Positions 4,661 to 61,769 of a DNA stretch of 64,000 nt are shown piece after piece. How positions within the stretch are numbered: the stretch's first letter is position 1; each line of letters starts with the position of its first letter. This DNA comes from Heptranchias perlo (Eukaryota). A program made the translations under genes and the position numbers. The stretch covers positions 42,842,001 to 42,906,000 of the forward strand of contig NC_090329.1 in assembly GCF_035084215.1 (NCBI RefSeq), read 5' to 3'. The notes under the pieces were generated by a model. That model was given only the letters and a program-made list of their open reading frames with translations, had not been told where the DNA came from and did no database searches.

Positions 4661-5394
4661 TTGCCAGAAATCTTGTACAGCACACTGTTGTAAATGCCAC
4701 CAACAGTATTGCAGGACCTGCCAGACCACTTTCTATATACTATTGCAACTTTCTCCAAGTATAGGAAGCTTCAACAAACACGTCCAATTATACCAAGAAG
4801 CAATAATCCAGCAACTAACCTGCAACAACTGTATGATCCCTTTAAATAGCGCAGGTGGGGGGTCCTGCAAGTCATTTACGACCTGTTCAACAATGCATGG
4901 TTAAGACAGTGCATTGGCTGGAGCCAACGTTGAGTTCCAAGATTGTATCTGTCCCTTTAAATCAGCGTTGCACGCTGATCCAATTCATATTTTCCTTACT
5001 TTACATGCTGCCGGCGTTTGTTATCTGCGTGTGCGCAAACACCTTTACCGAGATGGTGTCCAGCGCACCTCAAACTAGAAGCGTGCGCGCGCATTCCGGA
5101 TGCAATTTGGGTCCTTCGGAGGCCACGAAGCGTCTACAAAATGGGCGCTACATGGCCCAATTTATAGCCCTATGTTCCTAATGGTTGAGAAATGACTCGT
5201 AGATTGTCCAAATACATCCTCATGGAATCTATTTTCTCAACAGCAAGTAATAAATTATGAAGTAGATTTTATGAACATGTGCTACTTTCATGGAGCTTCG
5301 TGCGCTGGGTAGTACATATCAGGAATTCATTTGCAGAGATCTGCAGGATTTTCCATCCATTGAAGTTGGCTTAAACCCTGGGTGGAATCATCTC

Positions 5395-5650: not shown

Positions 5651-5923
5651 ACTGTTAATAGGCTGTACAAATATGAATATTTCTTGATGCCATTTCTTCC
5701 AGCCTACAATTTTTAGAGACAGGTGTCCAATACTTTACTAAATCAATGACATGTGAAGTACAATAAATGAATAAATAAATTAAAATAAGGAGTAAACCCT
5801 TATCTGACCCTGTCATTCCTTTTATTCCAGAAAGAAAAGCTTGCTGGCTGTCAAAAAAACATCCACAATCAATTGTAAACAATTTTACAACACCAAGTTA
5901 TAGTCCAACAATTTTTATTTGAA

Positions 5924-5964
5924 ATCTACAAGCTTTCGGAGGCTTCCTCCTTCGTCAGGTAAAT
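5924..5964 (-). ncRNA. Minimal hammerhead ribozyme motif (left arm)
   Basis: Exact reverse complement of 7855-7895. Confidence 0.8.
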
Positions 5965-6194
5965 GTTCAGGAGCTCCTCGAAGTCTACGCATTTATACAT
6001 ATAGAACAATACATGGTGTTTACAGACTGCCCCTGCAACTGCCCGTTGCCAAGGCAATCACCGTGTTCAGACAGAGAGGTGTCACCTACAGAACCCCCGA
6101 ATACACATTCAACAAAAAAACAAACAGGGAAAAAAAAACAGAGAGAGGCAGAAACATCCGGAAGGCAGAGAAAGCCAGCAAATGACCCATTATA

Positions 6195-6899
6195 TTAAAA
6201 AGATAGCTTTTGTTCGCTGGTGGGGTAACGTGTAGCGTGACATGAACCCAAGAGGCCGTCCTCATGGGTGCGGAACTTGGCTATCAATTTCTGCTCGACG
6301 ATTTTGCGTTGTCGTGTGTCTCGAAGGCCGCCTTGGAGAACGCTTACGCGAAGATCGGTGACTGAATGTCCCTGACTGCAGAAGTGTTCCCCGACTGGGA
6401 GGGAACCCTCCTGTCTGGCGATTGTTGCGCGGTGTCCGTTCATCCGTTGCCGCAGTGTCTGCATGGTCTCGCCAATGTACCATGCTCCGGGGCATCCTTT
6501 CCTGCAACGTATGAGGTAGACAACGTTGGCCGAGTCACAGGAGTATGAACCATGCACCTGGTGGGTGGTGTCCTCTCGTGTGATGGTGGCATCTGTGTCG
6601 ATGATCTGGCATGTCTTGCAGCGGTTACCGTGGCAGGGTTGTGTGGTGTCGTGGACGCTGTTCTCCTGAAAGCTGGGTAATTTGCTGCGAACGATAGTCT
6701 GTTTGAGGTTGGGTGGCTGTTTAAAGGCGAGTAGTGGAGGTGTGGGGAAGGCCATAGCGAGGTGTTCATCGTCATTGATGACATGTTGAAGGCTGCGGAG
6801 AACATGGCGTAGTTTCTCCGCTCCGGGGAAGTACTGGACGACGAAGGGTACTCTGTTGGTTGCGTCCCGTGTTAGTCTTCTGAGGAGGTCTATGCGATT
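6195..6899 (-). pseudogene. Penelope ORF C-terminus (Cys-rich linker plus GIY-YIG endonuclease), left arm; 10-nt deletion removes the terminal GLN motif
   Basis: CHGNRCKTC, NVVYLIRC...WYIGET...RMNGH. Confidence 0.9.
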
Positions 6900-6907
6900 C
6901 AACGAAA

Positions 6908-7624
6908 AATCGCATAGACCTCCTCAGAAGACTAACACGGGACGCAACCAACAGAGTACCCTTCGTCGTCCAGTACTTCCCCGGAGCGGAGAAACTACGC
7001 CATGTTCTCCGCAGCCTTCAACATGTCATCAATGACGACGAACACCTCGCTATGGCCTTCCCCACAACTCCACTACTCGCCTTTAAACAGCCACCCAACC
7101 TCAAACAGACTATCGTTCGCAGCAAATTACCCAGCTTTCAGGAGAACAGCGTCCACGACACCACACAACCCTGCCACGGTAACCGCTGCAAGACATGCCA
7201 GATCATCGACACAGATACCACCATCACACGAGAGGACACCAACCACCAGGTGCATGGTTCATACTCCTGTGACTCGGCCAACGTTGTCTACCTCATACGT
7301 TGCAGGAAAGGATGCCCCGGAGCATGGTACATTGGCGAGACCATGCAGACACTGCGGCAACGGATGAACGGACACCGCGCAACAATCGCCAGACAGGAGG
7401 GTTCCCTCCCAGTCGGGGAACACTTCAGCAGTCAGGGACATTCAGTCACCGATCTTCGCGTAAGCGTTCTCCAAGGCGGCCTTCGAGACACACGACAACG
7501 CAAAATCGTCGAGCAGAAATTGATAGCCAAGTGCCGCACCCATGAGGACGGCCTCAACCGGGATCTTGGGTTCATGTCACGCTACACGTTACCCCACCAG
7601 CGAACAAAAGCTATCTGTTTTTAA
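6908..7624 (+). pseudogene. Penelope ORF C-terminus (Cys-rich linker plus GIY-YIG endonuclease), right arm; frame open but 5'-truncated (no RT core)
   Basis: NVVYLIRC...WYIGET...RMNGH...VEQKLI...DGLNRD. Confidence 0.9.
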
Positions 7625-7854
7625 TATAATGGGTCATTTGCTGGCTTTCTCTGCCTTCCGGATGTTTCTGCCTCTCTCTGTGTTTTTTTTCCTGTTTGTT
7701 TTTTTGTTGAATGTGTATTCGGGGGTTCTGTAGGTGACACCTCTCTGTCTGAACACGGTGATTGCCTTGGCAACGGGCAGTTGCAGGGGCAGTCTGTAAA
7801 CACCATGTATTGTTCTATATGTATAAATGCGTAGGCTTCGAGGAGCTCCTGAAC

Positions 7855-7895
7855 ATTTACCTGACGAAGGAGGAAGCCTCCGAAAGCTTGTAGAT
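7855..7895 (+). ncRNA. Minimal hammerhead ribozyme motif (right arm)
   Basis: ATTTAC-CTGACGA-A-GGAGG(AAG)CCTCC-GAAA-GCTT-GTAGAT: catalytic core, stem II, palindromic AGCT stem III, 6-bp stem I. Confidence 0.8.
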
Positions 7896-9564
7896 TTCAA
7901 ATAAAAATTGTTGGACTATAACTTGGTGTTGTAAAATTGTTTACAATTGTCAACCCCAGTCCATCACCGGCATCTCCACATCATGACATCCACAATCAAA
8001 ACATTTTGAACTAAACCTATATCCTAAAAATTCTATGTCTAAAAAAAAATCAACTTTGTTAACCCCTTATTTGCTAGTTTTATAACTGATCTTTTCTGTG
8101 TTCCTGCTAAATGGGCTTGTGCCTAGTATTTAAATACTGGGGAATTCCAGTGGTGTCTGTCATACCCGGTTTCTGCAGCTCCTGGGACAAGCCATCAACC
8201 AGCTCCAGGATATATTCATTGGGCTGAATGCCAGGATACGATTCCAAAGTTTTGTCATCCACCTTGAGACCCATGATGAAGTCCTCCCAAATTAACTGCT
8301 TTCTCTAAGTCCTTTGAGAGTTCTTCAACAAGCACATTAATTTGCCAAACATTTCCTGGATAGCCTTCAAGCAGAAAAAGGAAAGAAGAGGCCATAAGGT
8401 AGTCTAACAAGGGGAAAAATAAGATAGGAAAAATTGGCTCCTTGTCACATCATTGGAATGTCTTAAAGCGCTTCACACGATAAATTCCTTTTTTTTTGGA
8501 ATGCAGTGACTGCTATGCAGGCAAAGGAGAATAGATCAGATTATTGCGGATTTCTCATTTTTGCATTGCACTACCAAAGCAATTGTTCTGAGTATGTATT
8601 CTTACATGGTCAAAAGATAATGCATGTCACATGCAGACAAGATTCCAATTTGGTTTTACCTTTACTTAAAATGTAAGAGAAATGTATTATGTTAGTGACC
8701 TGAAATGGGTTCTAAAGCCCAAAAGTGAAGGCTGAAGGCACATTTGGACACCCTTGTGTAATTTGAGGGGTTCTGGTTTATCCTATAATACAGCATACAC
8801 CCACATTTTTATGTTGTCTCTCTGTATCTTTTATAGAGACATGTCAGTAAAAAAATGATGCAAAGGCTGCCAGTTGTAGAGGTTGGATTTTTTTTTAACT
8901 GCATGCTTTCCTGTAATCATTCCAAAACGGGCTTGATCCTGTTCTTTCTGGTTGTCTATTGAAAGCAACTATGTGGATTATCAATATAATATTCAAACAG
9001 ATTAAATGATCCCAGAACAATTTTAAAGCAACAGTATGTTGGACAACATAATTTTATGCTGTATTCTGCATTTTACAACTAATAAAATCTATATTTGTTA
9101 TAACTAAAACTTCTTTTAAAAAGCAATGAGACAAGCGTGATCAGGCCCATCCTACCTCTTAACAGCAATTAGCTCACCGTGGCCCCAAAATTCCTGTAGG
9201 GCCGTTGTGCTGGCTGCACACTGGCAGAGAGGACTCTAAATCCCTTTGAGGCCACCGGTACCCACCCTGGCATCGCCCCCAAAAAATCAGACCAATGTCA
9301 TGCTACTCCATGCTGAAGAAGAGGCTCAAGAAGGCAAGAAGGGCCCAGTGACCAGGTGAGTTTTCTTCCCCTCCAGGATCGATTAGCTTTGGCTGGTCGG
9401 GGTTTCAGGCCTTTTACGTGTCCTCAACAGTGCTCACACATAGACGAATGTGATGGCGGGATAGAAGATCCACTCTCTCCTTCCCACCAAAATTTACCAA
9501 CTTCCTCTCCACACAGCTAAATCCCAGCAGAACCAAGTTCCACCCCATTTTCTGTCACCAATCC

Positions 9565-12500
9565 GACAAGAACAACTTGGATTTATAAAACTCCTTTAAT
9601 ATAAAAAAAAAATCCCAAGGCACTTCAGAAAGGCGTAATTGGAAAAAAATGGACACTGAGCAAAAGAAGAAGATATTCGAGTGGTGACTAAAAGTTTGAC
9701 CAGAGACGTGGGTTTTAAGAGTGTATTAAAGGATAAAAGGTATTTGGAGAAGCGGAGAGGTTTAGGGAGGGAATTATAGGGCCCAGACAGGTGAAAGCAT
9801 GACCTCCAATGGTGGGGTGAAAGGATGGAAGGATGTAGAATCATTGAATGGTTACAGCACAGAAGGAGGCCATTCGTCCCATCAAGCCCGCTCTGGGCTC
9901 TTTGTAAGAGCAATCCAGTTAGTCCCATTCCCCGCCTTTTCCCAATAGCCTTGTAATTTTTTTCCTTTCAAGTATTTATACAATCCCATTTTGAAAGCCA
10001 CGATTGAATTTGCTTCCACCACCCTTTCAGGCAGCGCATTCCAAATCATAACTACTCGCTGCGTAAAAAAGTTTTTCCTCATGTCATCTTTGGTTCTTTT
10101 GCCAATCACCTTAAATCTGTGTCCTCTGGTTCTCGACCCTTCCACCAATGGGAACAGATTCTCTTTATTTACTTTATCTAAACCCTTCATGATTTTGAAC
10201 ACTTCTATCAAATCTCCTCTCAAACGTCTCTGCTCTAAGGAGAACAACCCCAGCTTCTCCAGTCTATCCACGTAACTGAAGTCCCCCACCCCTGGAACCA
10301 TTCTAGTTAATCTTTTCTGCACCCTCTCTGAGGCCTTCACATCCTTCCTAAAACGTGGTGTCCAGAATTGAACACAATACTCCAGCTGTGGCCGAACCAA
10401 TGTTTTATAAAGGTTCAACATAACTTCCTTGCTTTTGTACTCTGCCTCTATTTATAAAGCCCATGATCCTGTATACATTTTTAACAGCCTTCTCAACTTG
10501 TCCTGCCACCTTCAAAGATTTGTGCATGTGCACCCTCAGGTGTCTCTGTTCCTGCACCGCCTTTTAAATTGCACCACTTAGTTTATATTGCCTCTCCTCA
10601 TTCTTCCTGCCAAAATGTATCATTTTGTACTGCTCTGCGTTAAATTTCATCTATCATGTGTCTGCCCATTCCACCAGCCTGTCTATGTTCTCTTGAAGTT
10701 TATTACTATCCTCCTCTCTGTTTACTACATTTCCAAGTTTTGTGTCATCTGCAAATTTTGAAATTGTGCCCTGTACACCGGAGTCCAAGTCATTAATATA
10801 TACCAAGAAAAGCAGTGGTCCTAGTACCGAACCCTGGGGAACACCATTGTACACCTCCCTCCTGTCCGAAAAACAACCGTTCACCACTACTCTCTGTTTC
10901 CTGTCACTTAGCCAATTTCGTATCCATGCTGCCACTGCTCCTTTTATTCCATGGGCTTCAATTTTGCTGATAAGCCTATTATGTGGAACTTTATCAAACG
11001 CCTTTTGAAAGTCTATATACATAATATCAACCGCATTGCCCTCATCAACCCTCTCTGTTACCTCCTCAAAATACTCAATCATGTTAGTTAAACACGATTT
11101 GCCTTTAACAAATCTATGCTGGCTTTCCATTATTAATCCACAATTGTTCAAGTGGCTATTAATTTTGTCCCGGGCTATCCTTTCTAAAAGCTTCCCACCA
11201 CTGAGGTTAAACTGACTGGCCTGTAGTTGCCGGGTTTATCCTTTCACCCTTTTTTGAACAAGGGTGTAACATTAGCAATTATCCAGTCCTCTGGCACCAA
11301 CCCTATATCTAAGGAGGATTGGAAGATTGTGGCCAGCACCTTTGCAATTTCCACTCTTACTTTCCTCAGCAACCTAGGATGCATCCCACCCAGACCAGGT
11401 GACTTATCTACTTTAAGTACAGCCAGCCTTTCTAGTACCTCCTCTTTACCAATTTTTAGCCAATCCAGTATCTCAACTACCTCCTCTTTTACAGTGACTT
11501 TGGCAGCATCTTCTTCCTTGGTAAAAACAGATAAAAAGTATTCATTTAGTACCTAAGCCATGCCCTCTGCCTCCATGCATAGATCTCCTTATTGGTCCCT
11601 GATCGGCCTCACCCCTCCTCTTACTACCTGTTTCCTATTTATATACCTATAGAAGACTTTTGGATTCCCTTTTACGTTAGTCGCCAGTCTATTCTCATAC
11701 TCTCTCTTCGCACCTCTTATTTCCTTTTTCACCTCTTCTCTGTACTTTCTATATTCAGCCTGGTTCTCACTTGTATTATCAAAGTGACATCTAACATAAG
11801 CCCCTTTTTTCTGCTTGATCTTACTCTCTATCGCTTTCGTCATCCAGGGAGCTCTAGCTTTAGTTGTCCTACCTTTCCCCCTCGTTGGAATGTACCTAGA
11901 CTGTACTCGAACCATCTCCTCTTTAAAGGCCACCTATTGTTCGATTACAGTTTTGCCTGCCAATCTTTGATTCCAATTTATCCGGGCCAGATCCGTTCTC
12001 AACCCGCTGAAATTGGCCCTTCTCCAATTAAGTATTTTTACTCTAGATTGCTCCTTGTCCTTTTCCATAACTAGTCTAAACCTTATGATACTATGATCAT
12101 TGTTCCCTAAATGTCCCCCACTGACTCATGCTCCACTTGGCCCACCTCATTTCCCAGAACTAGATCCAACAAAGACTCCTTCCTCATTGAGCAGGAAACA
12201 TACTGATCAAGAAAGTTCTCCTGAACACACTTCAGAAATTCTTCCCCCTCCTTGTCCTTTACACTATTACTATCCCAGTCTATATCAGGATAGTTGAAAT
12301 CCCCCATTATTACTACTCTATAGTTCTCTGTAATTTACCTGCAAATTTGCTCCTCTATATCCTTCCCACTAATTGGTGGCCTATAGAATACACCCAGTAG
12401 TGCAATGGCGCCTCTATTGTTTCTTAACTCTAACCAAATAGATTCTGTCCTTGACCACTCAAGGACATCCTCTCTCTCCAGTACTGCAATATTTTCTATA

Positions 12501-30750: not shown

Positions 30751-30922
30751 TTGATATATCCCTTACATTTGCCTCTTAAAAACAATATTCAATCCTTATT
30801 AACATTATCATCACTGCAAAACTCACTATCCACATGTCTCACTCTTAAGTCTCGCCTGCTATCTTAATGGTTCATCATATCACATTACATCCTATCCCCC
30901 ATCACCTGTAACATTGCGCACC

Positions 30923-31542
30923 TGTTAGCAGATTACTCCAGTTACTGTCAAAACTATAGGTTATTAATCCATCTAGCCCGAATGGATATAAAATAGCAAG
31001 TTTAATAGATTCACTTACAACAGAGTTGCACTACAGTTGCCTTCAACATTACATTCAACAATATTATAGTTATAATACATCTGTCTACAGATTACATTAA
31101 ATGTACCCTCTTGAGAGCTCTAACTTTTGGGTGGGAACATGCCCTCTCTATACTATTCAGCCAAGTTGTTCTGTACGTAAGCACCGCTGGTCTTATCTCA
31201 TGGTCGTAAACCATCCCACCATGCTGACGCCATGTTAGCAACTCAAGACGTAGCTAATGACCTCAACTCTCATCTCTGTTTACAAGTTGTTATGTTCCTC
31301 TGAGGAATGCGTGGTTCCTTCTTATCTGAGTACAGCCCCCCTAATTTGGCCTTGTACGGTCCCACCAATGTCAGTTTCGTCACAACACATCGCTTGTTTT
31401 GGTGTAAACCACTTTCTGACGTTAATGTTATCTATTCTATGGCCTCCCTGATGTTCTGCTGTGTGAGCTGTCCTTGTTCTCGCAAAGATGCTGAACTTTT
31501 GCCGTCCTATTTTCTATGCTTGTTTTAAACCATGTTCTTACA
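30923..31542 (-). repeat. 3' LTR (620 bp)
   Basis: Collinear with 35466-36163 apart from three deletions and scattered substitutions. Confidence 0.93.
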
Positions 31543-31554
31543 TTCCCTCCTCTT
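31543..31554 (-). other. Polypurine tract
   Basis: AAGAGGAGGGAA abutting the 3' LTR on the minus strand. Confidence 0.85.
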
Positions 31555-32323
31555 GAATCTCAGTGAACCTCAGTTGAACTCTGGTTCAATTATAGCACCT
31601 AGAAATGGGCCATCTCTTCACCTTTGGGTGTTTATAGCTCTGAAGTGTCAGCATGCTCTGTCTCTTACAAACTGTCGTTCATACACACACCGAGACACCA
31701 CTTCACCCCCTCCTATTAACACCATCCTCTATCTAAATGTTTGGGAGCTTTATGCGAGCAATGTGAGATGGAATATTGACCATGCTTGGCTCTTGGTTCC
31801 ACCCAGGTTCAATTTTCAGTTTATCCCTTAACTATCTCTTTGTTCTTGCCTAAGATCATCTTGAGTTTACATAAGCACATATGGGCACATACATATTGCA
31901 TCTAACTTTCATTTGGTTAATACGGAAACCTACAGTGTATCATAATATCAAGAAATCATGGACTTAAAAGATTCTCCAGCTCTCCTTTTATTAATATCCA
32001 TCTTGTGGATATATTATTTCTCCCAACCCAATTTCATTGTTAACGGAAAAGAACCTAATCCTGAATTTTGCAAATCTAATTTACTAGGTCCCTCTGCTTC
32101 AATTTCAATCCCTCTGATTGGTACCAGTGTTTCCTGATTGTTTCATTAATTAGTCAGTTTCTCTATGGTGCACGTGTCAGTGCCTTGTTTAAAAGATTTT
32201 CTCACTCTCCTGAGCCATGTTGATCATTTCGTGTCATGCTGTTGTCAAGTGACTGAGCATGTCTGAGACCTGTTCTTCAGTGCATCTTCATCACGCATTT
32301 CTGCTTACCAGTTGCCTCACACG

Positions 32324-33817
32324 CAACATATTACAAGTGAATATTAACTTTCTGCTGGCCAGTTTTTTCTTCCTCATTGTATTTCCAAATGTGTTTTCCA
32401 TTAGTGTTCTTTGAGGAAATAACAAGCAACATGGTTAAAGGGGATCCTGTGGATGTGGTGTACTTGGATTTCCAGAAGGCTTTTGACAAGGAGCCACATC
32501 AAAGGCTACTACACAAAATAAGAGCTCATGGTGTAGGGGGTAACATATTAGCATGGATAAAGGATTGGTTAGCTAACAGGAAACAGAGAGTAGGCATAAA
32601 TGGGTCATTTTCAGGTTGACAAGATGTAACGAGCGGAGTGCCACAGGGATCAGTGCTGGGGCCTTAACTATTTACAATCTATATCAATGACTTGGATGAA
32701 AGGACCGAACGTATGGTTGCTAAATTTGCTGATGACACAAAGGTAGGTAGGAAAGTAAGTTGTGAAGAGGAAATAAAAGGAGTCTGCAAAGGGATATAGA
32801 CAGGTTAACTTGGCAGATGGAGTATAATGTGGGAAAATGTGAACTTGTCCACTTTGGCAGGAGGAATAGAAAAGCAGTATATTATTTAAATGGAGAGAGA
32901 TTGCAGAACTCTGAGGTACAGAGGGATCTGGGTGTCCTAGTACATGAATCACAAAAGTGTTAGTATGCAGGTACAGCAAGTGATTAGGAAGGCAAATGGA
33001 ATGTTGTCATTTATTGCAAGGGGAATGGAATATAAAAGTAGAGATGTTTTGCTACAGTTGTACAGGGCATTGGTGAGACCACATCTAATACTGTGTGCAA
33101 TTTTGATCTCCTCAATTAAAAAAGGACATAATTGCTTTAAAGGCGATTCAGAGAAGATTCACCTGACTGTTTCCTGGGATAAGGGGGTTATCTCATGAGG
33201 AAAGGTTGGACAAGTTAGGCCTGTATACATTGGAGTTTAGAAGAATGAGAGGTGATCTTATTGAAACATATAAGATCTTGAGGGGACTTGACGGGGTAGA
33301 TGCTGAGAAGATATTTCCCCTTGTGGGAGAGACTAGAACTAGGGGCCACAGTTTAAAAATAAGGGGTCTCTCATTTAAGACGGAGATGAGGAGAATTTTT
33401 TTTTCTCAGATGGTCGTGAGTCTGTGGAACTCCCTTCCCCAGAGAGTGGTGGAGGCAGGGCCATTGAATATTTTTAAGGCTGAGTTAGATAGATTCCTGA
33501 TTAACAAGGGAGTCAAAGGTTATAGTAAGTAGACAGGAAAGAAGGGTTGTGGTCACAATCAGATCAGCCAAGATCTTATCAAATGGCGGAACAGGCTCGA
33601 GGGGTCGAATGGCCTGCTCCTACTCTTAATTCATATGTTCGTATGGCATACTTCATATATCCAGTAAGATTCAATCCTGTAGGAGCAACTGCTCTGTTTA
33701 AAGAGTGGTTCCAATAGCTCACCAGGCCGTAGGTCTTTGTAATCGTCTTCTTCATCCTGGTCTCTGTTTCCAAATGATGGCAACATAATTTGTATCTTTC
33801 ATGTCCATTGTAGCCAT
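32324..33817 (-). pseudogene. ERLEC1: Captured intronless ERLEC1 (XTP3-B) fragment, N-terminal part of first MRH domain; pieces 33643-33817 and 32324-32401 separated by CR1
   Basis: Manual translation [38 protein letters not shown] then GKHIWKYNEEEKTGQQKVNIH matches recalled vertebrate ERLEC1 [46 protein letters not shown]. Confidence 0.88.
32403..33644 (+). mobile_element. CR1 LINE 3' fragment inserted into the LTR element
   Basis: VYLDFQKAFDK, RRMRGDLIETYKI, CR1 3' UTR and TATGTTC tail. Confidence 0.93.
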
Positions 33818-35448
33818 TCTTGGGCTTTCAGGTTATCTTATCAAAAGATCGGGGGGGGGTGTCTGGAGATATTTGCTTCTCTCCCCCTGCAGAGTCCTGA
33901 TATCTCAGGTAGTGGCCAGACTATGAAATGCAGTTTTCTCATTGTTCAATATAGGCATCAGCACAAATATCTCCAAGAAAAAGCTATCAATTACTATTCA
34001 CAACTACACTTTCCTGATTTCACTAGATTGTACATTAATACCAGATTGATATCTTTTGGTAAATCATGCCCAGGTGATTTATTTACCCATAATCACCCAA
34101 GGCACTTACTTTAGAGAAATTCCCATTTGGTGGTGTAATTTCCCTGTTTCTATCTTATATTCTCAATCACTTCCTCTCATCTAATTTTACATATGGCATT
34201 ATATTACCATTTCATTTCATTCATGAGCCCTGGAGGAGCTTTACTGTCCAATACAATATTTACAGTTTGGTCCAATATCTTAATACATTTTTTTGTTTAT
34301 TTTACTTAAATTCTTCTTGGACCGCTTTTCATTATCCAAATTTGAGAGTAGTACTGTTGGACTGACAGGATTTGTCAATGTACAATTTTATTTCCCCCCA
34401 AAATACTTTCTTCCTTGATTCACAGCATTGGACAAGAACCATATTTTCCATAAGTCCTGGTCCAAAACGTCACCAGGCTGTGACATTTGATATCTGCCAA
34501 TGTCCACAAATAAATTCTTAACACCACTGGATCGTTTCCTGCATTTTGTGGTCCCGAAAACCATGGTCTCCTGTTTTAAAAAGAAACACAGAAAATCCAT
34601 TGTGGCTCTTCTTGAGAGCCCAAAGGGTTAAAAACAACAAACGATTCATTAATTTCCTTCTGTTATCCATTATCCCAGGACTAGAGAGGAATCCACACAT
34701 GTTTCCGTGAATGAATTTAATTACCTCACTCCAGGAGGAATAGTCAGCAAAGGGAACACAAAATTATGTCCAATATATCCTTCTATCATGTGGGGAAATA
34801 TCCACTTACATTAAGAAAATCATTTTAAATAAATGCAAAGGCTGTTGTTTTATGAATTAAAACAGATGTCGGTGTCCTTGGAAGGGGTTAACCTCTTCGC
34901 AGAAAAATAAGCAACTGACGCAGCTTGTGTCAAGGCAGTGTTCACGTAAAATTTTTTTTAAATCTTTCGTGTCAGGGAAGATATTTTAATTCGTTCATCT
35001 TATTTTTAGTTAATCCAATATTTGTTGTCAAAGAGACACAAGATTAAGTTTAATTTCTTCCACTTTTAATTGAAAGATACGTTACCCTTCACAGCTAAAC
35101 AAAATCTTTGTAACATTACACAAAAGAGAACACAAAGCAAACATTGTGAAAAGAAAGCACTAACACAGGCTTTTAAAACAAAGAACACATTCTGCAGATA
35201 GTAACGCTCTACTGATTCTTATATAATTCCTTTACAGCCTCTATGCTGTGAAAGAATCCATTCTTAACTCTTCGTCCCCCTGCACAATTTATTTCCCTCT
35301 TCTCTTTTGCTTTGAACATAAACTATACGGTGCACTCGCCATGCTTATTTCTTTCTCTATCTCTGTCTTCCTCTCCCTCTGTCTCCACCTCTCTCTCTCA
35401 CTCTCTCTATCTCTCTGTCAATCTCTTAACGCTAGTTATCTTTAAAAC

Positions 35449-35465
35449 TCGAGCCCACCCAGGGA
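35449..35465 (-). other. Primer-binding site complementary to tRNA-Asn 3' end, lacking terminal TGGCG
   Basis: Plus strand TCGAGCCCACCCAGGGA equals the recalled 3' end of vertebrate tRNA-Asn(GTT) and abuts the 5' LTR. Confidence 0.75.
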
Positions 35466-36163
35466 TGTTAGTGGATTTCTCCTGTTGCTGTCACAACTAT
35501 GGGTTGTTAATCCACCAACAATAACTTCTGCTTGATTCTAGCCCCAGTGGTTATAAAATTGCAAGTTTAATAGACTGACTTACAACAGAGTTGTACTACA
35601 GCTGTCTTCAACATTACATTCAACAATATTATAGTTATAATACAACTGTCTACAGATTACATTAAATGACAAGCAATCAATACAACCTGATGGACTTCCA
35701 ACCGTACCCTCTTGAGAGCACTAACTTTTGGGAGGAAGCATGCACTCTCTTTATACTATTCGGCTGTGTTGTTCTGTATATAAACACCGCTGGTCTTATC
35801 TCATGGTCATAAACCATCCCACCATGCTGACGCCATGTTAGCAACTCAAGATAAGCCGTTCTACATAACGTAGCTAATGACCTCAACTCTCATCTCTGTT
35901 TACAAGCTGTTATGTTCCTCTGAGGAATGCATAGGTCCTTCTCATCTGAGTACAGCCCCCCTTATTTGGCCTTGCATGGTCCTACCAATGTCGGTTTCTT
36001 AGCAACCACATCTCTTGTTTTAGTGTAAACCACCTTCTGACGTTAATGTTATCTATTCTATGGTCTCCCTGATGTTCTGCTGCGTGAGCTGTCCCTGTTC
36101 TCACAGAGATGCTAAACTTCTGCCCTCCTATTTTCTATGCTTGTTTTAAACCATGTTCTTACA
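35466..36163 (-). repeat. 5' LTR (698 bp) with TATA-like box and poly(A) signal
   Basis: Minus strand TATAAA at 35750-35755 and ATTAAA at 35566-35571. Confidence 0.9.
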
Positions 36164-36420
36164 GCACCCAGATTCTACCACTTCGTTTGTTACAGTTACC
36201 TTCTCGTCTTGCGTAACAGTCTTACCTTCATATTGTTCTCATTAATTATTTCCCTATCCATATAGGAATCTGATACTGCGGACCTGTGAAAGGTCTTGAC
36301 GCCAAAGTCAGCTAAGGGTGCCTTTGTTGGATATATTGAGATATCTTGTGAAGGGGAGCAAACCGAAATCATTCTATCAACTGCACTGCTGACTGGCAGG
36401 AGGACTTCACAGGGGTGAAG

Positions 36421-37249: not shown

Positions 37250-40200
37250 ATCATTGTACTTGATGCAGCTAAGTACCGGGTTATGTTGCCAAACCTCCGG
37301 AGGTAGAATTTCTTTTTATCTTTTCTGTGTGGATGACCTCCTCACAAGTAGCACTACATTTACCTGACTGCAGCATCACCCCCAGGACATGGGTTCAGTG
37401 TACACATGCTTCAACAACCTGACCTTGACAGCAAGGATGTGCATGATGTCTTCCTATCTTTATTTCTCTGCATTAGACCTGGCCACAGCACTACTCCCCC
37501 CTCCCCCAACACTCCAAACACTTCCTTCCCCCATTCATAATTTTCCAAAGTAATCTAAATTAGGGAATTGAGCTTTTGAATTACAAAATGGCAAATGTCA
37601 CTCCATTATTTAAGAAAGGAGGGAGGGAGAAATGAGGAAACTATAGACATGTCAGTTTAAATCAATGGTGAGGAAGTTACTGGAATCTATCACCAGGGAC
37701 AGAGTGACTGAGCACTTGAACAAATATGAACTGATCAAAGAGAGCCTTCAAAAGAAAACTGCTTTCTACACACATGCAATTGTATGAGGTATTAGGAAGC
37801 CTGATTAGTAGCTGCTGCACCAAGTCTGAGAGTATGGCGGAGTCTGATTCCAGCTCATGTGGTATTCTGGTGCAAGACAGCGACACTCTACATTCTACCA
37901 TGGAACATGTGGTCACCTCTACGGATGCTGCATCCATGCCTTCACATCAAGAGTCCTGGCACCAGCTCTTGCAGCTTTGATCGAAGCTCAAACTAGTCCC
38001 ATTCAGGCTCTGAGCTCCACCATCTCCACCGCCCACAAAAGGCTGGGGGGATGCATTGATAAGGGCTTCAGTCACGTCACAGATCTCCTGCAGTCCACAC
38101 TGCCATAAATCGGTGGGAGTGATGAGCCGCAGCCCCATGGGAGTGGCAGTGGCGTAATGGGAGTGGCACATGTTGCACTCTCGCAGGATGTCAGCACATC
38201 TGCTCCCTTGCCACCTCCTCAACTAATGCCTGCCTTGGTGCCAGAAAGTCAGCAGAATTACTGCCCCAGCGGTAGCTGAGGAGTTGCAGTCTGTGGTAGA
38301 ACAGGCAACAGAACCAGAGGCGAGATGAGGATTTTTTTTAAGCGAGTTGTTATGATCTGGAATGTACTGCCTGAAAGGGTAGTGGAAGCAGATTCAATAA
38401 TAACTTTCAAAAGGGAATTGGATAACAACTTGAAGGGAAAAAATTGCAGGGCTATGGGGAAAGGGCAGGGGAGTGGGTTTAATTGGAAAGCTCTTTCAAG
38501 AGCTGGCATAGGCACGATGGACTGAATGGCCTCCTTCTATGCAGTATCATTCTATGATTCCATTAAGTCACTTAAGAAAAGCACTTTGGGTTAACACTTG
38601 AATGAAAATATAATGTTATGGCTCTTGTTTAAAAAAATTACATTCAGAAAATCACAGCTTTTGACTTCCCAACTTTGTCTGCAGTGTGGTTCCACAGTAA
38701 CTACTGAACCTGCAAAGCCAGGTGTCAAGTATATAAAAGTTGGTCAGAGGTTGGAATTTCTTTATTGCAGGGTGAAAGGACTGGTAGAGGTGGTATTGAG
38801 GAGTGTTAATGTGGCGGTGGGGGTAGGCAGAAGGGAAGGAGTAATCAACTGTTAGCAAAGACCTCTGGCTGTAGGCTGGTGCTGTCGTCCTCCTGCTTCT
38901 GCTCCGTCCTCACTGTCATCGAACTCTATCTCGTCAGATTGTGAAAGGTCTTTTTGCTGTGCAGGCTCCATGCACTGACTCCATTGCACAGCAAAGTTGT
39001 GCAGGATGCAGCACAAAACCACAATGTGGGAGACTCTCTGTGGGCTGTATGTCAGAGAGCCCCCAGATGTGCCCAGGCAGTGAAAGTGTTATTTGAGCAG
39101 TCCGATGGTATGCTGTATGATGGTTCTAGCGGTACCATGGCTCTGATTGTATCTCCATTCAACGGGCGAGCGCAATTTACATCGACAGATCATGGGCCAT
39201 GTGTACGGAGCGCAACTTTGGTCCCCAAGTAGCCACGCTGGATCAAAGAGTGGGGGGCTGGTGGACTGGTGGAGTATGAAGGCGCTGTAACAGCTGCAAG
39301 GAAACCAAGCACAGACCTCCATGTTTCACTGCCAATGATCACTCACCATCTGAATACTGATGGAGTGATAGCCTTTCTTGATCATGAAGGCTGTTGGCTG
39401 ATTGGGAGGAGCCCTCATGGCTCTATGGGTGCAGTCAACTACAGCCTGATCCTGTGAGAAGCCTGCTATGGCAGCAATGCCTACAGCCCTTTCCTGCTGA
39501 CTATTGGCATCCATGGGGAATATTATAAAATTGTTGGCTTTGGCAAAGAGGGCATCAGTGACCTGCTTAAGGCAGGCATGGGCTGCAGACTCATTAATCT
39601 GACAGATGCCATCTGGAAAGAGCCAGAGGCAAAAAAAATTAAGGGCCATAGTCATTTTGGCTGTCACAGAAAATGCATGGTCAGCTAGGAGAGTAGGTTG
39701 TAGGTCAAGCTATAAGAGGCTGTACGGGTCCTTGACAGGAGCTTAGCCTCCTGATACACTGCTCCATGGAAAACTGGAGGTAACTAACTCAGGACCTATA
39801 CACCCTATGGGCAGGGTAAGAGCACCTATGAGCAGCCTTCCTCGTGTGCGGTCCAACTGCAGCTATTTGAGGTTCCCTGACTTGCTACTCCTGCTCCTGT
39901 TGCTCCTCTTCCTCCAACCAGAGCAGAGTGCTCAGGATGACTTCCATCTTGAGCTCTAGGATTCTTGAAGGTTTAGAAGCAGAAGAAAAGTGAAAACCAG
40001 CCAATTCGAATGCAAAAACTTGTGAAAAAATCCAGCCAGGTGAACCGCAAACAGATACCAATGATCTGAGTACTTGCAGTTGAGTGCCCCTTTAAATTGT
40101 GCTTCCAATTGCTTTTCCATTCCTGTATTGCCCAGTAGTGCTTCAGGTGAGCCCCTAAACCCATGATGGAAGGTCGGATCAAAGAAGAAGTGCAAGACTG

Positions 40201-49870: not shown

Positions 49871-51483
49871 TATGCCAATTTTACTGCTGCCGTTTTACGC
49901 CCCTACTGAATTTGAATGCTCCACCCATGGAGTTCCTCTGGAGGGGAACATAGCCCTAAGAATTGATACTGAATCACTTGCTTTCTTCAATAGGGGCTTA
50001 TCATGTGTTGTCACAACTCAGACTGTGATCTTTTTACTGTTGCAGTTTTACTTGGTAGTTGGTTCTCCTGTGGTTGAATTACCATAGTTGCTGCTTTTCT
50101 TTGTAGGCTTCCTTTTGTTATGGTGTTTGAGATATAAATTACAATACTTAAAGTTGAGGTATCATATTCTACACTGTTATTTTCATACCAGAATTAGATC
50201 ATCATTTCTACAGAATTGGCACACGTCACACAGTACATTCAGGACTCACGCCTCTCACAAACTGCACGATAAGCTGATATTAGCATGGCAAACTACTCAT
50301 CAGTGATGATTATAGTGTTTAGTGTTGCTCTGTGCTTTCAGTTTTTATTTCTCAAAAAAGTTCCCTGGGATTTTTCAGTAATTATTTCTGACTTTGCAAG
50401 AACATGTAAAAGTTAGCAAGAATGCAAAAGACAAAAGTTTAGTGACGATCAAAAAAAAATCTATTTCAGTTAGCAAAAACAGTATGCAATTACAGACAAT
50501 ATGTAATTGCAAATATGTAATCACAATATGTAATTGCAAATGCTTACAAATAATTACATAAAATTCATTTTACAAAGCATGAGCTGGCAGTCATCAGTAT
50601 TCTTTTGGTTTGTATATACCTTTATACAAGGTCTCAGCCTCATCGTCATTCACTTACCTGAAGTTGCAAGCAGGATTTTCAGTTCGTCAATGAAATAAAA
50701 TGGGATTTTTTTTTCCAGTAATTAAAACTCAACAATATAAAAATAATTCTAGTAAAAATTGAAAACTTAAATGAAGAAAACAACAGTAACTTTTCAGGAG
50801 AAGTCAGTATAAACCAGAAATGTGGTGCTGTAAGTGTATGTAAACACCATAATGTTTTACTTCCTCTGTGGTTTAAATTTAGAGGAACCACAGTGTGGAC
50901 TGCAGTAAGTGCACTGCATATCTATATGCAAGGATGTGTAGCTTGACTAAAGCTGGAAAATAGAACCTGAATTTTGAGTCTGGATCAGAGTCAGTATAAA
51001 GAAGGTAAACTGTTTATGTTGGTGTGAAGCAAACTGACAGAATTAGGCTTTTCAAATAAATTGAGGTGCACGTGACAAAAATTCTGTATTTTTTGTATAA
51101 TGTCATTTTGGTAGCTGTCATTTCAAACCTCATTGTACAAGAGGATTTTAGCAGTATGTGGAAGAATTCAGGGCTTATGTTTATTGGGAAAAAAATTGAC
51201 CCCTTCAAGATACTTTTATAGAAACTGACATCATGCAAACCAAAATAATATTTTCTTTCCTCCAATGTAAATATTAAAGAATTGCAGAATATGCTGAAGC
51301 AAATTATCTACCTCCCAAACCGGAATTACTATATATCAGAGGTTCTGGTTCTGAAAGTGCAGCAAGCTGTTGTGTAATGTTTGTTTGAGGTGGTAAAATA
51401 TAAATAACTGCTCTGTTATGACACATGTCCTTCATTTGCAGAATCCTCAAGATAATTATAGCTGTGTGTTCTAATTGCCCAAG

Positions 51484-53376
51484 AGGATGAGACCGGGAAA
51501 TTAATGGTGGGAAACATGGAGATGGCAAAAATGCTGAACAAATATTTTGTTTCAGTCTTTACAGTAGAGGACACTAAGAATATCCCAACGCTGGACAAAC
51601 AGGGGACTCTCGGGGGGGAGGAGCTAAATACGATTAAAATCACTCAGGAGATGGTACTCAGTAAAATAATGGGACTCAAGGCGGATAAATCCCCTGGACC
51701 TGATGGCTTCCATCCTAGGGTCTTGAGGGAAGTGGCAGTAGGGATTGTGGATGCTTTGGTGATAGTTTTCCAAAATTCCCTGGACTCAGGAGAGGTCCCG
51801 GCAGATTGGAAAACTGCTAATGTAACACCGTTATTTAAAAAGGGTAGTAGGCAGAAGGCTGGAAATTATAGGCCAGTTAGCTTAACATCTGTGGTGGGTA
51901 AAATTTTGGAGTCTATTATTAAGGAGACAGTAACGGAACATTTAGATAAGCATAATTTAATAGGACAAAGTCAGCATGGCTTTATGAAGGGGAAGTCATG
52001 TCTGACAAATTTGCTTGAGTTCTTCGAGGATATAACGTATAGGGTGGATAAAGGGGAACCAGTGGACATAGTGTATTTAGACTTCCAGAAGGCATTCGAC
52101 AAGGTGCCACATAAAAGATTATTACTTAAGATAAAAAATCACGGGATTGGGGGTAATATTCTGGCATGGGTGGAGGATTGGTTATCGAACAGGAAGCAGA
52201 GAGTTGGGATAAATGGTTCATTTTCGGACTGGCAACCAGTAACCAGTGGTGTTCCACAGGGGTCGGTGCTGGGTCCCCAACTCTTTACAATCTATATTAA
52301 CGATTTGGAGGAGGGGACCGAGTGCAACATATCAAAATTTGCAGATGATACAAAGATGGGAGGGAAAGTAGAGAGTGAGGAGGACATAAAAAACCTGCAA
52401 GGGGATATAGACAGGCTGGGTGAGTGGGCGGAGATTTGGCAGATGCAATATAATATTGGAAAATGTGAGGTTATGCACTTTGGCAGGAAAAATCAGAGAG
52501 CAAGTTATTTTCTTAATGGCGAGAGACTGGAAAGTACTGCAGTACAAAGGGATCTGGGGGTCCTAGTGCAAGAAAATCAAAAAGTTGGTATGCAGGTGCA
52601 GCAGGTGATCAAGAAAGCCAACGGAATGTTGGCTTTTATTGCTCGGGGGATAGAATATAAAAACAAGGAGGTATTGCTGCAGTTATATAAGGTATTGGTG
52701 AGACCGCACCTGGAATACTGCATACAGTTTTGGTCTCCATACTTAAGAAAAGACATACTTGCTCTCGAGGCAGTACAAAGAAGGTTCACTCGGTTAATCC
52801 CGGGGATGAGGGGGCGGACATATGAGGAGAGGTTGAGTAGATTGGGACTCTACTCATTGGAGTTCAGAAGAATGAGAGGCGATCTTATTGAAACATATAA
52901 GATTGTGAAGGGTCTTGATCGGGTGGATGCAGTAAGGATGTTCCCAAAGATGGGTGAAACTAGAACTAGGGGGCATAATCTTAGAATAAGGGGCTGCTCT
53001 TTCAAAACTGAGATGAGGAGAAACTTCTTCACTCAGAGGGTGGTCGGTCTGTGGAATTTGCTGCCCCAGGAAGCTGTGGAAGCTACATCATTAGATAAAT
53101 TTAAAACAGAAATAGACAGTTTCCTAGAAGTAAAGGGAATTAGGGGTTATGGGGAGCGGGCAGGAAATTGGACATGAAGCTGAGTTCGGATCGGTCAATG
53201 CCCTGTGGGTGGCGGAGAGGGCCCAGGGGCTATGTGGCCGGGTCCTGCTCCGACTTCTTGTGTTCTTTAGATTTGTGGTTGGGATCAGATCAGCCATGAT
53301 CTTATTGAATGGCGGAGCAGGCTCGAGGGGCCGATTGGCCTACTCCTGCTCCAATTTCTTATGTTCTTATGTTCTT
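51484..53376 (+). mobile_element. Young 5'-truncated CR1 LINE
   Basis: Uninterrupted RT ORF, CR1 3' UTR, (TTCTTATG)n tail. Confidence 0.96.
51504..53177 (+). CDS. CR1 ORF2 reverse transcriptase domain (557 aa open; lacks APE)
   Basis: [43 protein letters not shown]. Confidence 0.9.
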   Translation: MVGNMEMAKMLNKYFVSVFTVEDTKNIPTLDKQGTLGGEELNTIKITQEMVLSKIMGLKADKSPGPDGFHPRVLREVAVGIVDALVIVFQNSLDSGEVPADWKTANVTPLFKKGSRQKAGNYRPVSLTSVVGKILESIIKETVTEHLDKHNLIGQSQHGFMKGKSCLTNLLEFFEDITYRVDKGEPVDIVYLDFQKAFDKVPHKRLLLKIKNHGIGGNILAWVEDWLSNRKQRVGINGSFSDWQPVTSGVPQGSVLGPQLFTIYINDLEEGTECNISKFADDTKMGGKVESEEDIKNLQGDIDRLGEWAEIWQMQYNIGKCEVMHFGRKNQRASYFLNGERLESTAVQRDLGVLVQENQKVGMQVQQVIKKANGMLAFIARGIEYKNKEVLLQLYKVLVRPHLEYCIQFWSPYLRKDILALEAVQRRFTRLIPGMRGRTYEERLSRLGLYSLEFRRMRGDLIETYKIVKGLDRVDAVRMFPKMGETRTRGHNLRIRGCSFKTEMRRNFFTQRVVGLWNLLPQEAVEATSLDKFKTEIDSFLEVKGIRGYGERAGNWT

Positions 53377-54342: not shown

Positions 54343-57300
54343 CATAATCATAGAATGATTACAGCACAGAAGGAGGCCATTTGACCCATCGAGCCCAGGG
54401 TGGCTCTTTGTAAGAGCAATCCAGGCAGTCCCATTCCCCATAGCCCTGCAATTTTTTTCCTTTCAAGTATTTATCCAATTCTTTTTTGAAATCCATGATT
54501 GAATCTGCCTCCACCACCCTTTCAGGCAGTACGTTCCAGATCATAACAACTCGCTGCGTAAAAAAAAATTCCTCATGTCGCCTTTGGTTCTTTTAAATCT
54601 GTGTCCTTTGGCTCTACACCCTTCCGTCAATGGAAACAGTTTCTCTATATCTACTCTGTCTAGACCCCCCCCCCCCCTCATGATTGTGAATACCTCTATC
54701 GAATCTCCTCTCAACCTTCTGTGCTCTAAGGAGAACAACCTCAGCTTCTCCAGTCTATCCACATAACTGAAGTCCATCATCCCTGGAACTATTCTAGTAA
54801 ATCTTTTCTGCACCCTCTCTAAGGCCTTCACATCCTTCCTAAAGTGCGGTGCCCAGAATTGGACACAATACTTCAGTTGTGGCCGAACTAGTGTTTTATA
54901 AAGGTTCAATATAACCTCCTTGCTTTTATACTCTATGCCTCTGTTTCTAAAGCCCAGGATCCCATATGCTTTTTAACCACTTTCTCAACCTGCCCTGTCA
55001 CCTTCAGAGATTTGTGCACATATACTCCCAGGTCTCTCTGTTCCTGCACCCCCTTTAGAATTGTACCCTTTAGTTTATATTGCTTCTCCTCATTCTTCCT
55101 GCCAAAATGTATCATTTTGCACTTCTCTGCGTTAAATTTCATCTGCAATGTGTCCACCCATTCTGCCAGCCTGTCTATGTCCTATGGAAGTCTATCACTA
55201 TCTTCGTCACTGTTCACTACACTTCCAAGTTTTGTGTCATCTGCAAGTTTTGAAATTGTGCCCTGTACACCCAAATCCAAGTCATTAGTATATATCAAAA
55301 AAAGCAGTGGTCCTAGTACCGATCCCTGGGGAACACCACTGTTTACCTTACTCCAGTCCGAAAAACACCCATTCACCACTACTCTCTGTTTCCTGTCACT
55401 TAGCCAATTTTATATCCACGCTGCCACTGCCCTTTTTATTCCATGGGCTTCAATTTTGCTGATAAGTTTATTATGTGGCACGTTATCACACGCCTTTTGA
55501 AAGTCCATATACAAAATATCAACCACATTTCCCTCATCAACCCTCTCTGTTACCTCATCAAAAAACTCAATCATGTTAGTTAAACACAATTTGCCTTTAA
55601 CAAATCCGTGCTGGCTTTCCTTTATTAATCCACACTTGTCCAAGTGACTATTAATTTTGTCCCAGATTATCCTTTCTAAAAGCTTCCCCATCATTGAGGT
55701 TAAACTACTGGCCTGTATTTGCCAGGTTTATCCTTAAATCCTTTTTTGAACAAGTGTATAACATTTGTAATTCTCCAGTCCTCTGGCACCACCTCCATAT
55801 CTAAGGATGATTGGAAGATTATGGCCAGCACCACTGCAATTTCCACCCTTACTTCCCTCAGCAACCTAGGATGCATCTCATCCGGACCAGGTAACTTATT
55901 TACTTTAAGTACAGCCAGCCTAGCTAGTACCTCCTCTTTATCAATTTTTAGCCCATCCAGTTTCTCAACTACTTCCTCTTTTACTGTGACTTTGGCAGCA
56001 CCTTCTTCCTTGATTAAGAGAGATAAAAAGTACTTATTTAGTACCTCAGCCATGCCCTCTGCCTCCATGCGTAGATGGCCTTTTTGGTCCCTAATCGGCC
56101 CCACCCCTCCTCTTACTCCACATTTACTACTTATATGCCTATAGAAGACTTTTGGATTCCCTTTTATGTTAGTCGCCAGTCTATTCTCATACACTGTCTT
56201 TGCCCCTCTTATTTCCTTTCTCACTTTTCCTCTGTACTTTCTATATTCAAGCTGGTTCTTACTTGTATTATCAAGCTGACATCTGTCATATGCCCCCCTT
56301 TTCTGCTTCATCTTGCTCTCTATCTCTTTCATCATCCAGGGAGCTCTGGCTTTGTTTGCCCTACCTTTCCCCCTCGTGGGATTGTACCTAGACTGTACCC
56401 GAACCATCTCTTTAAAGGCTATTTTTTGATTCCAGTTTTGCCTGCCAATCTTTGATTCCAATTTACCCAGACCAGATCTGTTCTCAACCCACTGAAATTG
56501 GCCCTCTTCCAATAAAGTATTTTTACTCTAGGTTGCTCCTTGTCCTTTTCCATAACTAATCTAAACCTTATGATACTATGATCACTGTTCCCTAAATGTT
56601 CCCCCATAGATACTTGCTCCACTTGACCCACTTCATTCCCCGATCTAGATCCAGCAATGCCTCCTTCCTCGTTGGGCCAGAAACATACTGATCAAGAAAG
56701 TTTTCCTGAATGCACTTTAGAAATTCCTCCCCCTCTTTGCCCTTTACACTATTACTATCCCAGTCTATATTAGGATAATTGAAGTCCCCCATTATCACTA
56801 CTCTATAGCTCTTGCATCCCTCTGTAACTTCCCTGCAAATTTGCTCCTCTATATCCTTCCCACTAGTTGGTGGCCTATAGAATACACCCAGTAGTGCAAT
56901 GGCGCCTCTATTGTTTCTTAGAACTAACCAAATAGATTCTGTCCTTGACCCCTCAAGGACATCCTCTCTCTCCAGCACTACAATATTCTCCTTAATCAAT
57001 ACTGCCACCACCCCCATCCCACTCCTTTTTTCCTTCCCTATCTTTCCTGAACACCTTGTATCCAGGAATATTTGGAACCCAATCCTACCCTTTTTTGAGC
57101 CAAGTCTCCGTTATCGCCAATACATCATATTCCCATGTGACTATTTGCGCCTGCGGCTCACCAACCTTATTTATCATGCTTTGTGCATTTACACACATGG
57201 AGTCTAAACCTATCTTAGAACTTCTTGTATTCTCTTTTAGTCTGATCCCACCTAATACTGTACTATTTCTTACTCTAGTGCTATCTGTCTCTCCCAATCC

Positions 57301-61732: not shown

Positions 61733-61769
61733 TCTCAAGCTTTCGGAGCTTACCTCCTTCGTCAGGTGA
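61733..61769 (-). ncRNA. Minimal hammerhead ribozyme motif with one stem I mismatch
   Basis: TCAC-CTGACGA-A-GGAG(GTAAG)CTCC-GAAA-GCTT-GAGA. Confidence 0.7.

What the first reader, a model, noticed from the sequence alone, without database searches (positions are those of the whole stretch)
32324..33817. LTR retroelement carrying a transduced fragment of the ER-quality-control lectin gene ERLEC1
Seen: between two LTRs and in the element's sense orientation, a frame absent from the ORF track reads ...[26 protein letters not shown], and on the far side of a CR1 insertion continues GKHIWKYNEEEKTGQQKVNIH. Upstream, MATMD/ERYK/MLPS is recoverable across two frameshifts. Known (recalled): this matches the start of the first MRH (mannose-6-phosphate receptor homology) domain of ERLEC1/XTP3-B, an ERAD lectin. 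Inference: about 250 nt of spliced host mRNA was captured by template switching, as in transducing retroviruses. There is no poly(A) tail or separate TSD, which argues against an independent LINE-made retrocopy. I know of no report of such a capture but cannot verify novelty.
Basis: partly seen in the sequence, partly recalled or inferred. Interest (0 to 1): 0.8.

Follow-up and report, generated by a model that had tools for sequence, protein, structure and literature searches.

The report
Shark LTR family carrying ERLEC1 exons
A gene-less, retrovirus-like jumping element in a shark once picked up a spliced piece of the host's ERLEC1 messenger RNA and carried it, as a dead passenger, to roughly a thousand places in the genome under four different sets of end repeats; such captures are known, but this one is unusually large and well travelled.

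Summary
Confirmed. The window holds a decayed, non-autonomous LTR element (minus strand, 30923-36163; TG..CA LTRs, 5-bp target duplication, tRNA-Asn primer site). Inside it lie about 235 nt of ERLEC1 coding sequence, 91% identical to the host gene on another contig, split by a CR1 insertion private to this copy. The piece joins host exons 2-5 with three introns (7.5 kb, 1.4 kb, 85 bp) missing, so it came from spliced mRNA. It is family-wide: about 730 copies by motif counts, about 960 estimated. The same cassette sits under four unrelated LTR types (LTR divergence 0.4-11%). In young ERV-derived elements it replaces 263 nt of an env-like remnant. The fragment is a passenger: dN/dS about 1 in old copies, 79 of 95 copies broken, no upstream frame. 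Template switching is inferred; no pre-capture parent was found. Precedents are in print (Tan 2016; crocodilian ERVs, 6-9 copies; FAM8A1), and this scan noted similar shark captures (RBPMS2, RBM25) on other DNA. No ERLEC1 case turned up in my searches. New variant of a known kind.

The parts
35466..36163 (-). 5' LTR (698 bp, TG..CA), LTR type A
   Evidence: 8.9% substitution divergence from the 3' LTR over 620 aligned bases; 1,579 first-look candidates genome-wide, including solo LTRs
35448..35465 (-). primer-binding site complementary to the 3' end of tRNA-Asn(GTT); this copy lacks about 8 nt next to the LTR compared with sister copies
   Evidence: the exact 17-mer lies in the 3' end of an ARAGORN-called tRNA-Asn gene, L145; sister copies
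33814..35447 (-). non-coding internal region; its 3' part is the upstream flank of the travelling cassette
   Evidence: no Pfam hit in the 3 sense frames; shared at 70-94% with other copies and other LTR types
33643..33813 (-). captured ERLEC1 mRNA, 5' piece: end of exon 2, exon 3, start of exon 4 (host CDS 188-360); one 1-nt deletion in the coding part
   Evidence: 156/171 nt identical to the host exons
32402..33642 (+). 5'-truncated CR1-type LINE, antisense to the element, private to this copy; 2-nt overlap at the junctions
   Evidence: RVT_1 E 1.2e-14; absent at this site in 29 of 29 other loci; junctions. The name CR1 rests on recalled C-terminal motifs
32338..32401 (-). captured ERLEC1 mRNA, 3' piece: rest of exon 4 and start of exon 5 (host CDS 359-422)
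   Evidence: 57/64 nt identical to the host exons
31554..32337 (-). non-coding internal region; its first 300-500 nt are the downstream flank of the cassette
   Evidence: no Pfam hit; shared with other LTR types
31543..31553 (-). polypurine tract
   Evidence: read directly; same tract before 3' LTRs of sister copies
30923..31542 (-). 3' LTR (620 bp, with internal deletions)
30918..30922 (.). 5-bp target-site duplication, 3' side (partner at 36164-36168)
   Evidence: 0 mismatches at 5 bp, 3 at 4 bp, 4 at 6 bp
36164..36168 (.). 5-bp target-site duplication, 5' side

Best explanation
One capture, then passive hitch-hiking. (1, shown) A piece of spliced ERLEC1 mRNA, host CDS about 188-434, exons 2-5, entered the internal region of an LTR element once. 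(2, inferred) This happened when reverse transcriptase switched twice between element RNA and co-packaged host mRNA. (3, shown) The gene-less chimera was copied as a whole by LTR-type integration to about a thousand sites; (inferred) the enzymes came in trans from helpers. (4, shown as a pattern, mechanism inferred) A 2-kb cassette holding the fragment passed by recombination between co-packaged RNAs into at least four LTR/primer-site types. In the youngest, ERV-derived type it replaced part of an env-like remnant. (5, shown for coding, inferred for other roles) The fragment encodes no lectin and decays neutrally. The window copy is an old type-A insertion that later received a CR1.
For: Spliced origin: three junctions crossed in 76/76, 76/76, 65/76 copies; the element matches only exons within 100 kb of the host locus, apart from CR1. 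Single event: the 5' end of the match is at CDS 184-190 or 200-203 in 48 of 50 loci, and 3' ends cluster at 434 with shorter ends down to 410. Family-wide: 271 exact matches to an exon2/exon3 junction 17-mer (control 2); 682 to an upstream-flank 19-mer (control 0); 19 of 20 flank-only places sampled carry the fragment; about 730 by motif union, about 960 by mark-recapture scaled from contig C1. 9 of 10 type-A elements picked by their LTR carry it. Whole-element integration: TSDs lie outside the LTRs. Four LTR types with no BLAST similarity to one another at E 1e-3 and different primer sites; TSDs mostly 5 bp in type A, 4 bp in B, C and D. Cassettes of young types B and C form one branch (13 rows, 100/100) among older copies. 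The cassette (2,135 nt in L075) replaces 263 nt of cassette-free L143. Neutral decay: stratified dN/dS 1.19 (0.81-1.83) in 26 DNA-selected old copies, 0.89 (0.66-1.25) in 57; 79 of 95 copies have a frameshift or nonsense change; only 7 of 76 have the frame open more than 42 codons upstream of host codon 101, and about 20 young copies share one frameshift.
Against: No element with both flanks but without the fragment was found (0 of 20 places tested; the one place lacking the fragment had unrelated sequence right after the flank), so microhomology and the replaced stretch at the primary junctions are unmeasured. No pol-bearing helper was identified. Variants shared among copies are more often synonymous than private ones (52/174 vs 32/192, Fisher p 0.003); transition bias could explain this and the stratified ratio is near 1, but weak early constraint is not excluded. 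Decay after insertion is neutral whatever the fragment did during replication, and the stem changes are few (4 near-universal differences, all synonymous; young stem 6 synonymous, 7 non-synonymous). The tree is poorly resolved (3 of 46 inner branches starred), so the order of transfers among old types is open. An LTR pair could be assigned for only 21 of 50 long loci.
Confidence: 0.82

Rival explanations
1. A LINE-made, doubly truncated ERLEC1 retrocopy (or a cDNA patch at a DNA break) landed in one resident LTR element, which then multiplied. The spread is the same; only the first step differs.
For: CR1-type LINEs are abundant and insert into these elements often. No parent was found to show replacement.
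Against: The fragment ends in mid exon 5 of a gene whose exons run on for a further 17 kb, with no poly(A) and no 3' UTR. [quoted passage not shown] The later cassette transfer shows the replacement pattern described for template switches (PMC5131818 section 5).
Confidence: 0.1
2. The fragment was kept because it helps the element, as RNA (small RNAs or a decoy against host ERLEC1, an ER quality-control lectin that could act on envelope glycoproteins) or once as part of a fusion protein.
For: It persists across four LTR types and from about 10% to under 1% LTR divergence. Shared variants are richer in synonymous changes. The young carriers are ERV-derived and env-bearing.
Against: The flanks travel with it just as faithfully. 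6 of 29 loci have lost its 3' part. The most recently successful lineage carries a shared frameshift. dN/dS is about 1. There is no signal peptide and only Pfam PRKCSH positions 1-37 of 74 are present.
Confidence: 0.07
3. These are genuine exons of the ERLEC1 locus or a DNA-level duplicate of it, or an assembly artefact.
For: 91% nucleotide identity to the host exons.
Against: The host gene is on C8 with introns. Hundreds of dispersed intronless copies have their own LTRs and TSDs. Contigs from runs under two other organism codes bridge the fragment-flank junctions.
Confidence: 0.01

Closest known systems
LTR-mediated retroposition (Tan et al. 2016, PMC5131818; passages and section 5 read)
   Same: Partial spliced mRNA between LTR-element sequence, truncated at both ends, no poly(A) or own TSD, further copied as a non-autonomous element.
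   Different: In the passages read, only two fly retrocopies had more than one insertion site and 'shark' does not occur in the text. Here there are about 1,000 copies under four LTR types. Their microsimilarity test could not be run on the primary junctions here.
Crocodilian ERVs CrocERV29 (KIT-ligand) and CrocERV31 (nectin3) (Chong et al. 2014, PMC4299795; passages read)
   Same: Host mRNA captured by an ERV lineage in a non-mammalian vertebrate, inherited by several copies and by more than one species; nectin3 replaces env.
   Different: Nine and six copies, long open frames, purifying selection reported. Here a 78-codon fragment with dN/dS about 1, mostly broken, at roughly a hundred times the copy number.
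FAM8A1 capture by HERV-K (Jamain et al. 2001; seen only as cited in PMC5131818)
   Same: ERV-borne processed pseudogene of a host gene. That FAM8A1 also serves the HRD1 ERAD complex is recalled, not checked, and is probably coincidence.
   Different: Human, microsimilarity shown; copy number not given in the passages read.
Transducing retroviruses (v-src of RSV, v-sis of SSV; review PMC13297096, passages read)
   Same: Route of capture; loss of viral coding sequence.
   Different: Those cargoes are expressed, selected proteins; this one is not coding.

Membership tests
Non-autonomous LTR retroelement | Paired TG..CA LTRs with a target-site duplication | tested here: met
Non-autonomous LTR retroelement | tRNA primer-binding site and polypurine tract | tested here: met
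   tRNA-Asn match; PPT
Non-autonomous LTR retroelement | No gag/pol of its own, yet many dispersed copies | tested here: met
   no Pfam gag/protease/RT/integrase hit inside the window element, L042, L046, L050, L143, L144; copy counts
LTR-mediated retrocopy (Tan et al. 2016) | Intronless, partial mRNA flanked by LTR-element sequence | tested here: met
LTR-mediated retrocopy (Tan et al. 2016) | No poly(A) and no own target duplication | tested here: met
   fragment ends inside exon 5 and runs into element sequence; a short duplication cannot be wholly excluded without the parent
LTR-mediated retrocopy (Tan et al. 2016) | Part of the element replaced, with microsimilarity at the switch points | tested here: inconclusive
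   no fragment-free parent in 20 places; replacement shown only for the later cassette transfer
Endogenous retrovirus (Retroviridae-derived) | Retroviral pol by phylogeny | tested here: inconclusive
   no pol in any of the 6 elements scanned; no helper identified
Endogenous retrovirus (Retroviridae-derived) | Retroviral env remnant | tested here: inconclusive
   met for one cassette-free type-B element (TLV_coat E 1e-10, L144); none in the window's type A, which only shares short internal stretches with type B
Transducing retrovirus with functional host cargo | Cargo in an expressed open frame under purifying selection | tested here: not met
Functional MRH-domain lectin (ERLEC1/OS-9) | Signal peptide and a complete MRH domain | tested here: not met
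   host codons about 63-145 only; PRKCSH positions 1-37 of 74

The most novel reading that the evidence does not exclude
The cassette is a selected RNA module, not baggage: it gives a packaging, export or splicing advantage, or yields small RNAs that damp the host ER-quality-control lectin ERLEC1 to the benefit of envelope-bearing helper viruses, and this is why unrelated LTR lineages kept acquiring it over a long span of shark evolution.
Probability: 0.08. Interest if true: 0.8.

Novelty: new variant of a known kind. Interest (0 to 1): 0.45.

Why it matters
The captured exons are a heritable tag of known origin. They show one cassette passing between LTR lineages with different LTRs, primer tRNAs and target-duplication lengths, which makes recombination among co-packaged non-autonomous elements traceable and datable in a slowly evolving genome. 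They also show that a captured host fragment needs no benefit to reach about a thousand copies. In practice these copies will disturb ERLEC1 annotation, read mapping and gene-family counts in this lineage, and the insertion family is a possible phylogenetic marker.

Tried and rejected
Search for a fragment-free parent: 20 of the 47 C1 places with the upstream motif, chosen among those lacking the junction motif; 19 carried the fragment, 1 was interrupted. Search for further captured host genes in the internal region: Pfam on 18 frames and PDB on 3 sense frames of L046 gave only PRKCSH, ERLEC1 and OS-9, plus one sub-threshold BRI3BP hit (E 0.0035) and one capsid hit (E 0.49) that I discount; short or non-coding captures are not excluded. 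Pfam on the env-like remnant alone gave nothing credible; the ESM Atlas placed it near viral glycoprotein clusters at 0.93 with low recognition, a lead only. Other elements with the same tRNA-Asn primer site (L146, L147) share no LTR with the window element and gave no Pfam hit (L146 scanned), so no helper was found. Primer tRNAs of types B and C look like tRNA-Gln and tRNA-Ser from recall; ARAGORN on all fetched loci found neither, so this is untested. Expression: no RNA holder listed. Run X14 laid 0 reads from 6% of the run, which is no test. First-look candidate numbers (1,318, 1,516, 30,998) were not used as copy numbers. The raw pN/pS of 0.28 against the host was rejected as a sign of selection on the element: it includes host-branch synonymous changes and copies chosen by protein score. 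Literature: ERLEC1 + retrotranspos* gave 3 unrelated listings, XTP3-B + endogenous retrovir* 1 listing on another topic; searches gave no listing on this family (listings only, open-licence library; subscription papers and repeat libraries such as Repbase or Dfam were not searched; no supplements were read).

Full report
Observation. Self-comparison shows two direct repeats, 35466-36163 and 30923-31542, 81% alike with gaps and 8.9% divergent by substitutions. On the minus strand they begin TG and end CA, are bracketed by a perfect 5-bp duplication, and a purine tract precedes the 3' copy. The 17 bases after the 5' LTR are complementary to the 3' end of a tRNA-Asn(GTT) gene in the same genome (1 of 3 loci fetched for that motif was the tRNA gene). 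The 48-residue frame at 33643-33786 hits human ERLEC1 at E 5e-18; its best relatives among 206 proteins are shark ERLEC1s at 81-85%. The 1.24-kb insert is a truncated LINE (RVT_1, E 1.2e-14) on the opposite strand.

Origin in spliced mRNA. A shark ERLEC1 protein located the host gene at G000:C8:39.864-39.893 Mb; the window is on C5. Exon borders follow GT-AG. The window pieces match host CDS 188-360 (156/171) and 359-422 (57/64), with a 2-nt overlap at the LINE. They join exons 2, 3, 4 and 5; the introns of 7,463, 1,412 and 85 nt are absent. Within 100 kb of the host locus the element matched exons only, apart from CR1 repeats.

A family, not a single copy. In 23 of 29 other loci the two pieces are contiguous; 6 lack the 3' piece; none has the CR1 there. 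Over 76 copies the three junctions are crossed without gap in 76, 76 and 65. A 17-mer across the exon 2/3 junction has 271 exact matches (control 2), and a 19-mer of the upstream flank 682 (control 0). Of 20 flank-only places fetched, 19 carry the fragment. The motif union gives about 730 copies and mark-recapture on C1 about 960; this is an estimate from one contig. Nine of 10 type-A elements chosen by LTR carry the fragment; the tenth was cut off by insertions within the 10 kb fetched. Contigs from runs under organism codes A, B and C bridge the fragment-flank junctions (three studies laid with signal), so the cassette is not peculiar to one assembly.

One cassette, four vehicles. Among 50 long loci, 21 had a recognisable LTR pair around the fragment (the rest had none or only CR1 pairs). 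They fall into four types with different primer sites and no BLAST similarity between types. LTR divergence is 8.9-11.2% in A (5 measured), 2.4-9.2% in D (4), 0.7-2.2% in B (4) and 0.4-2.0% in C (5). Target duplications fit 5 bp best in 9 of 11 type-A cases (2 uninformative) and 4 bp in 7 of 7 B, C and D cases. That points to at least two integrases (inference). In a tree of 49 rows the B and C cassettes form one branch (100/100) and are intermixed, among star-like older copies; the rest is unresolved. Cassette-free type-B elements exist (L143, L144): 2,135 nt of cassette in L075 stand in place of 263 nt of their env-like remnant. L144 also has a TLV_coat env remnant, so type B is ERV-derived. 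For the window's type A the class is open. Eight of 11 other loci picked by the env-like remnant carry the fragment within 1.5 kb. No gag or pol domain was found in the six elements scanned.

Function. Private changes are 17-19% synonymous, near the neutral 19-26%. Stratified by transition or transversion and base, dN/dS is 1.19 (0.81-1.83) in 26 DNA-selected old copies and 0.89 (0.66-1.25) in 57, after dropping 8-9 of 78 codons that hold common differences. 79 of 95 copies have a frameshift or nonsense change. In 69 of 76 copies the frame is closed within 42 codons upstream of host codon 101, that is at most a few codons before the fragment, and about 20 young copies share one frameshift. The four near-universal differences from the host are synonymous, as expected if the host gene has kept evolving under constraint since the capture. 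Against this reading, shared variants are richer in synonymous changes than private ones (p 0.003); recurrent transitions may explain it, but weak early constraint is not excluded. The piece lacks the signal peptide and half of the Pfam domain, so it cannot be an ER lectin.

Mechanism. Shown: spliced origin, common breakpoints, spread as whole LTR elements, presence under four LTR types, replacement in the type-B transfer, neutral decay. Inferred: capture by two template switches on co-packaged mRNA, mobilisation by helpers in trans, transfer by recombination between co-packaged RNAs. Not found: the pre-capture parent and the helpers. The capture postdates a host-lineage amino-acid change not seen in four named elasmobranchs.

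Comparison with what is known. Tan et al. 2016 (PMC5131818; passages and section 5) describe this route across animals, including further copying as non-autonomous elements, and cite the HERV-K capture of FAM8A1. Chong et al. 2014 (PMC4299795; passages) report KIT-ligand and nectin3 captures in crocodilian ERVs, with nine and six copies under purifying selection; I reached that paper through this scan's notes e1-8023565 and e1-8025832 and checked it. Those notes and e1-7942110 and e1-7790852 describe RBPMS2 and RBM25 captures in other genomes, some named as cartilaginous fish, one with a move to a second LTR; they are unchecked leads and suggest the pattern recurs in sharks. No ERLEC1 case appeared or the other listings, within an open-licence library.

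Verdict. This is an LTR-mediated retrocopy that became a large non-autonomous family. What sets it apart is scale (about 1,000 copies), lack of coding constraint, and passage of one tagged cassette through four LTR types. New variant of a known kind; interest 0.45.

Noticed in passing
L144 (G000:C15:2263500-2272900, minus): A gene-poor type-B LTR element holds two different envelope-like remnants in tandem: a cysteine-rich fusion-protein-like one (ESM Atlas lead only, on the L044 copy) and a Pfam TLV_coat one (E 1e-10). The first has 30,998 first-look candidates in the genome.
   Followed up: partly
L077:7095-7191 (oriented as): A second, partial ERLEC1 piece (host CDS 312-408) lies downstream of the first in this type-C element.
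   Followed up: no
L046:3000-3060 and related young copies: A short CR1-like 3' piece forms the downstream end of the cassette in young type-B and type-C elements, so it was carried along during their spread.
   Followed up: no
window 5870-7949 and 61674-62493: Long near-perfect inverted repeats (648 nt at 99%; 272 nt at 98%) with frames that resemble a Penelope-type GIY-YIG endonuclease from recall; Pfam gave no hit.
   Followed up: partly
window 3795-4739 and 39326-39709 (minus): Frames that resemble Harbinger transposase remnants from recall; no Pfam hit for 4194-4739.
   Followed up: partly
window 51462-53177 (+), 9882-12074 (-), 54541-57110 (-): Several CR1-type LINE copies, one with a 571-aa open stretch.
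   Followed up: no
L146, L147: Another LTR-like family primed by tRNA-Asn, unrelated in its LTR to the window element, with a broken gag-like frame.
   Followed up: partly
G000:C8:39874296-39874376: Host ERLEC1 reads KGLRP where four named elasmobranch proteins read KGHGP and the chimaera KGLGP. The window copy and 10 of 10 copies shown read L followed by R, W or Q, which places the capture in the host's own lineage.
   Followed up: yes
L048:959-2822: A 41-nt tandem array of about 1.9 kb upstream of a cassette-bearing copy.
   Followed up: no
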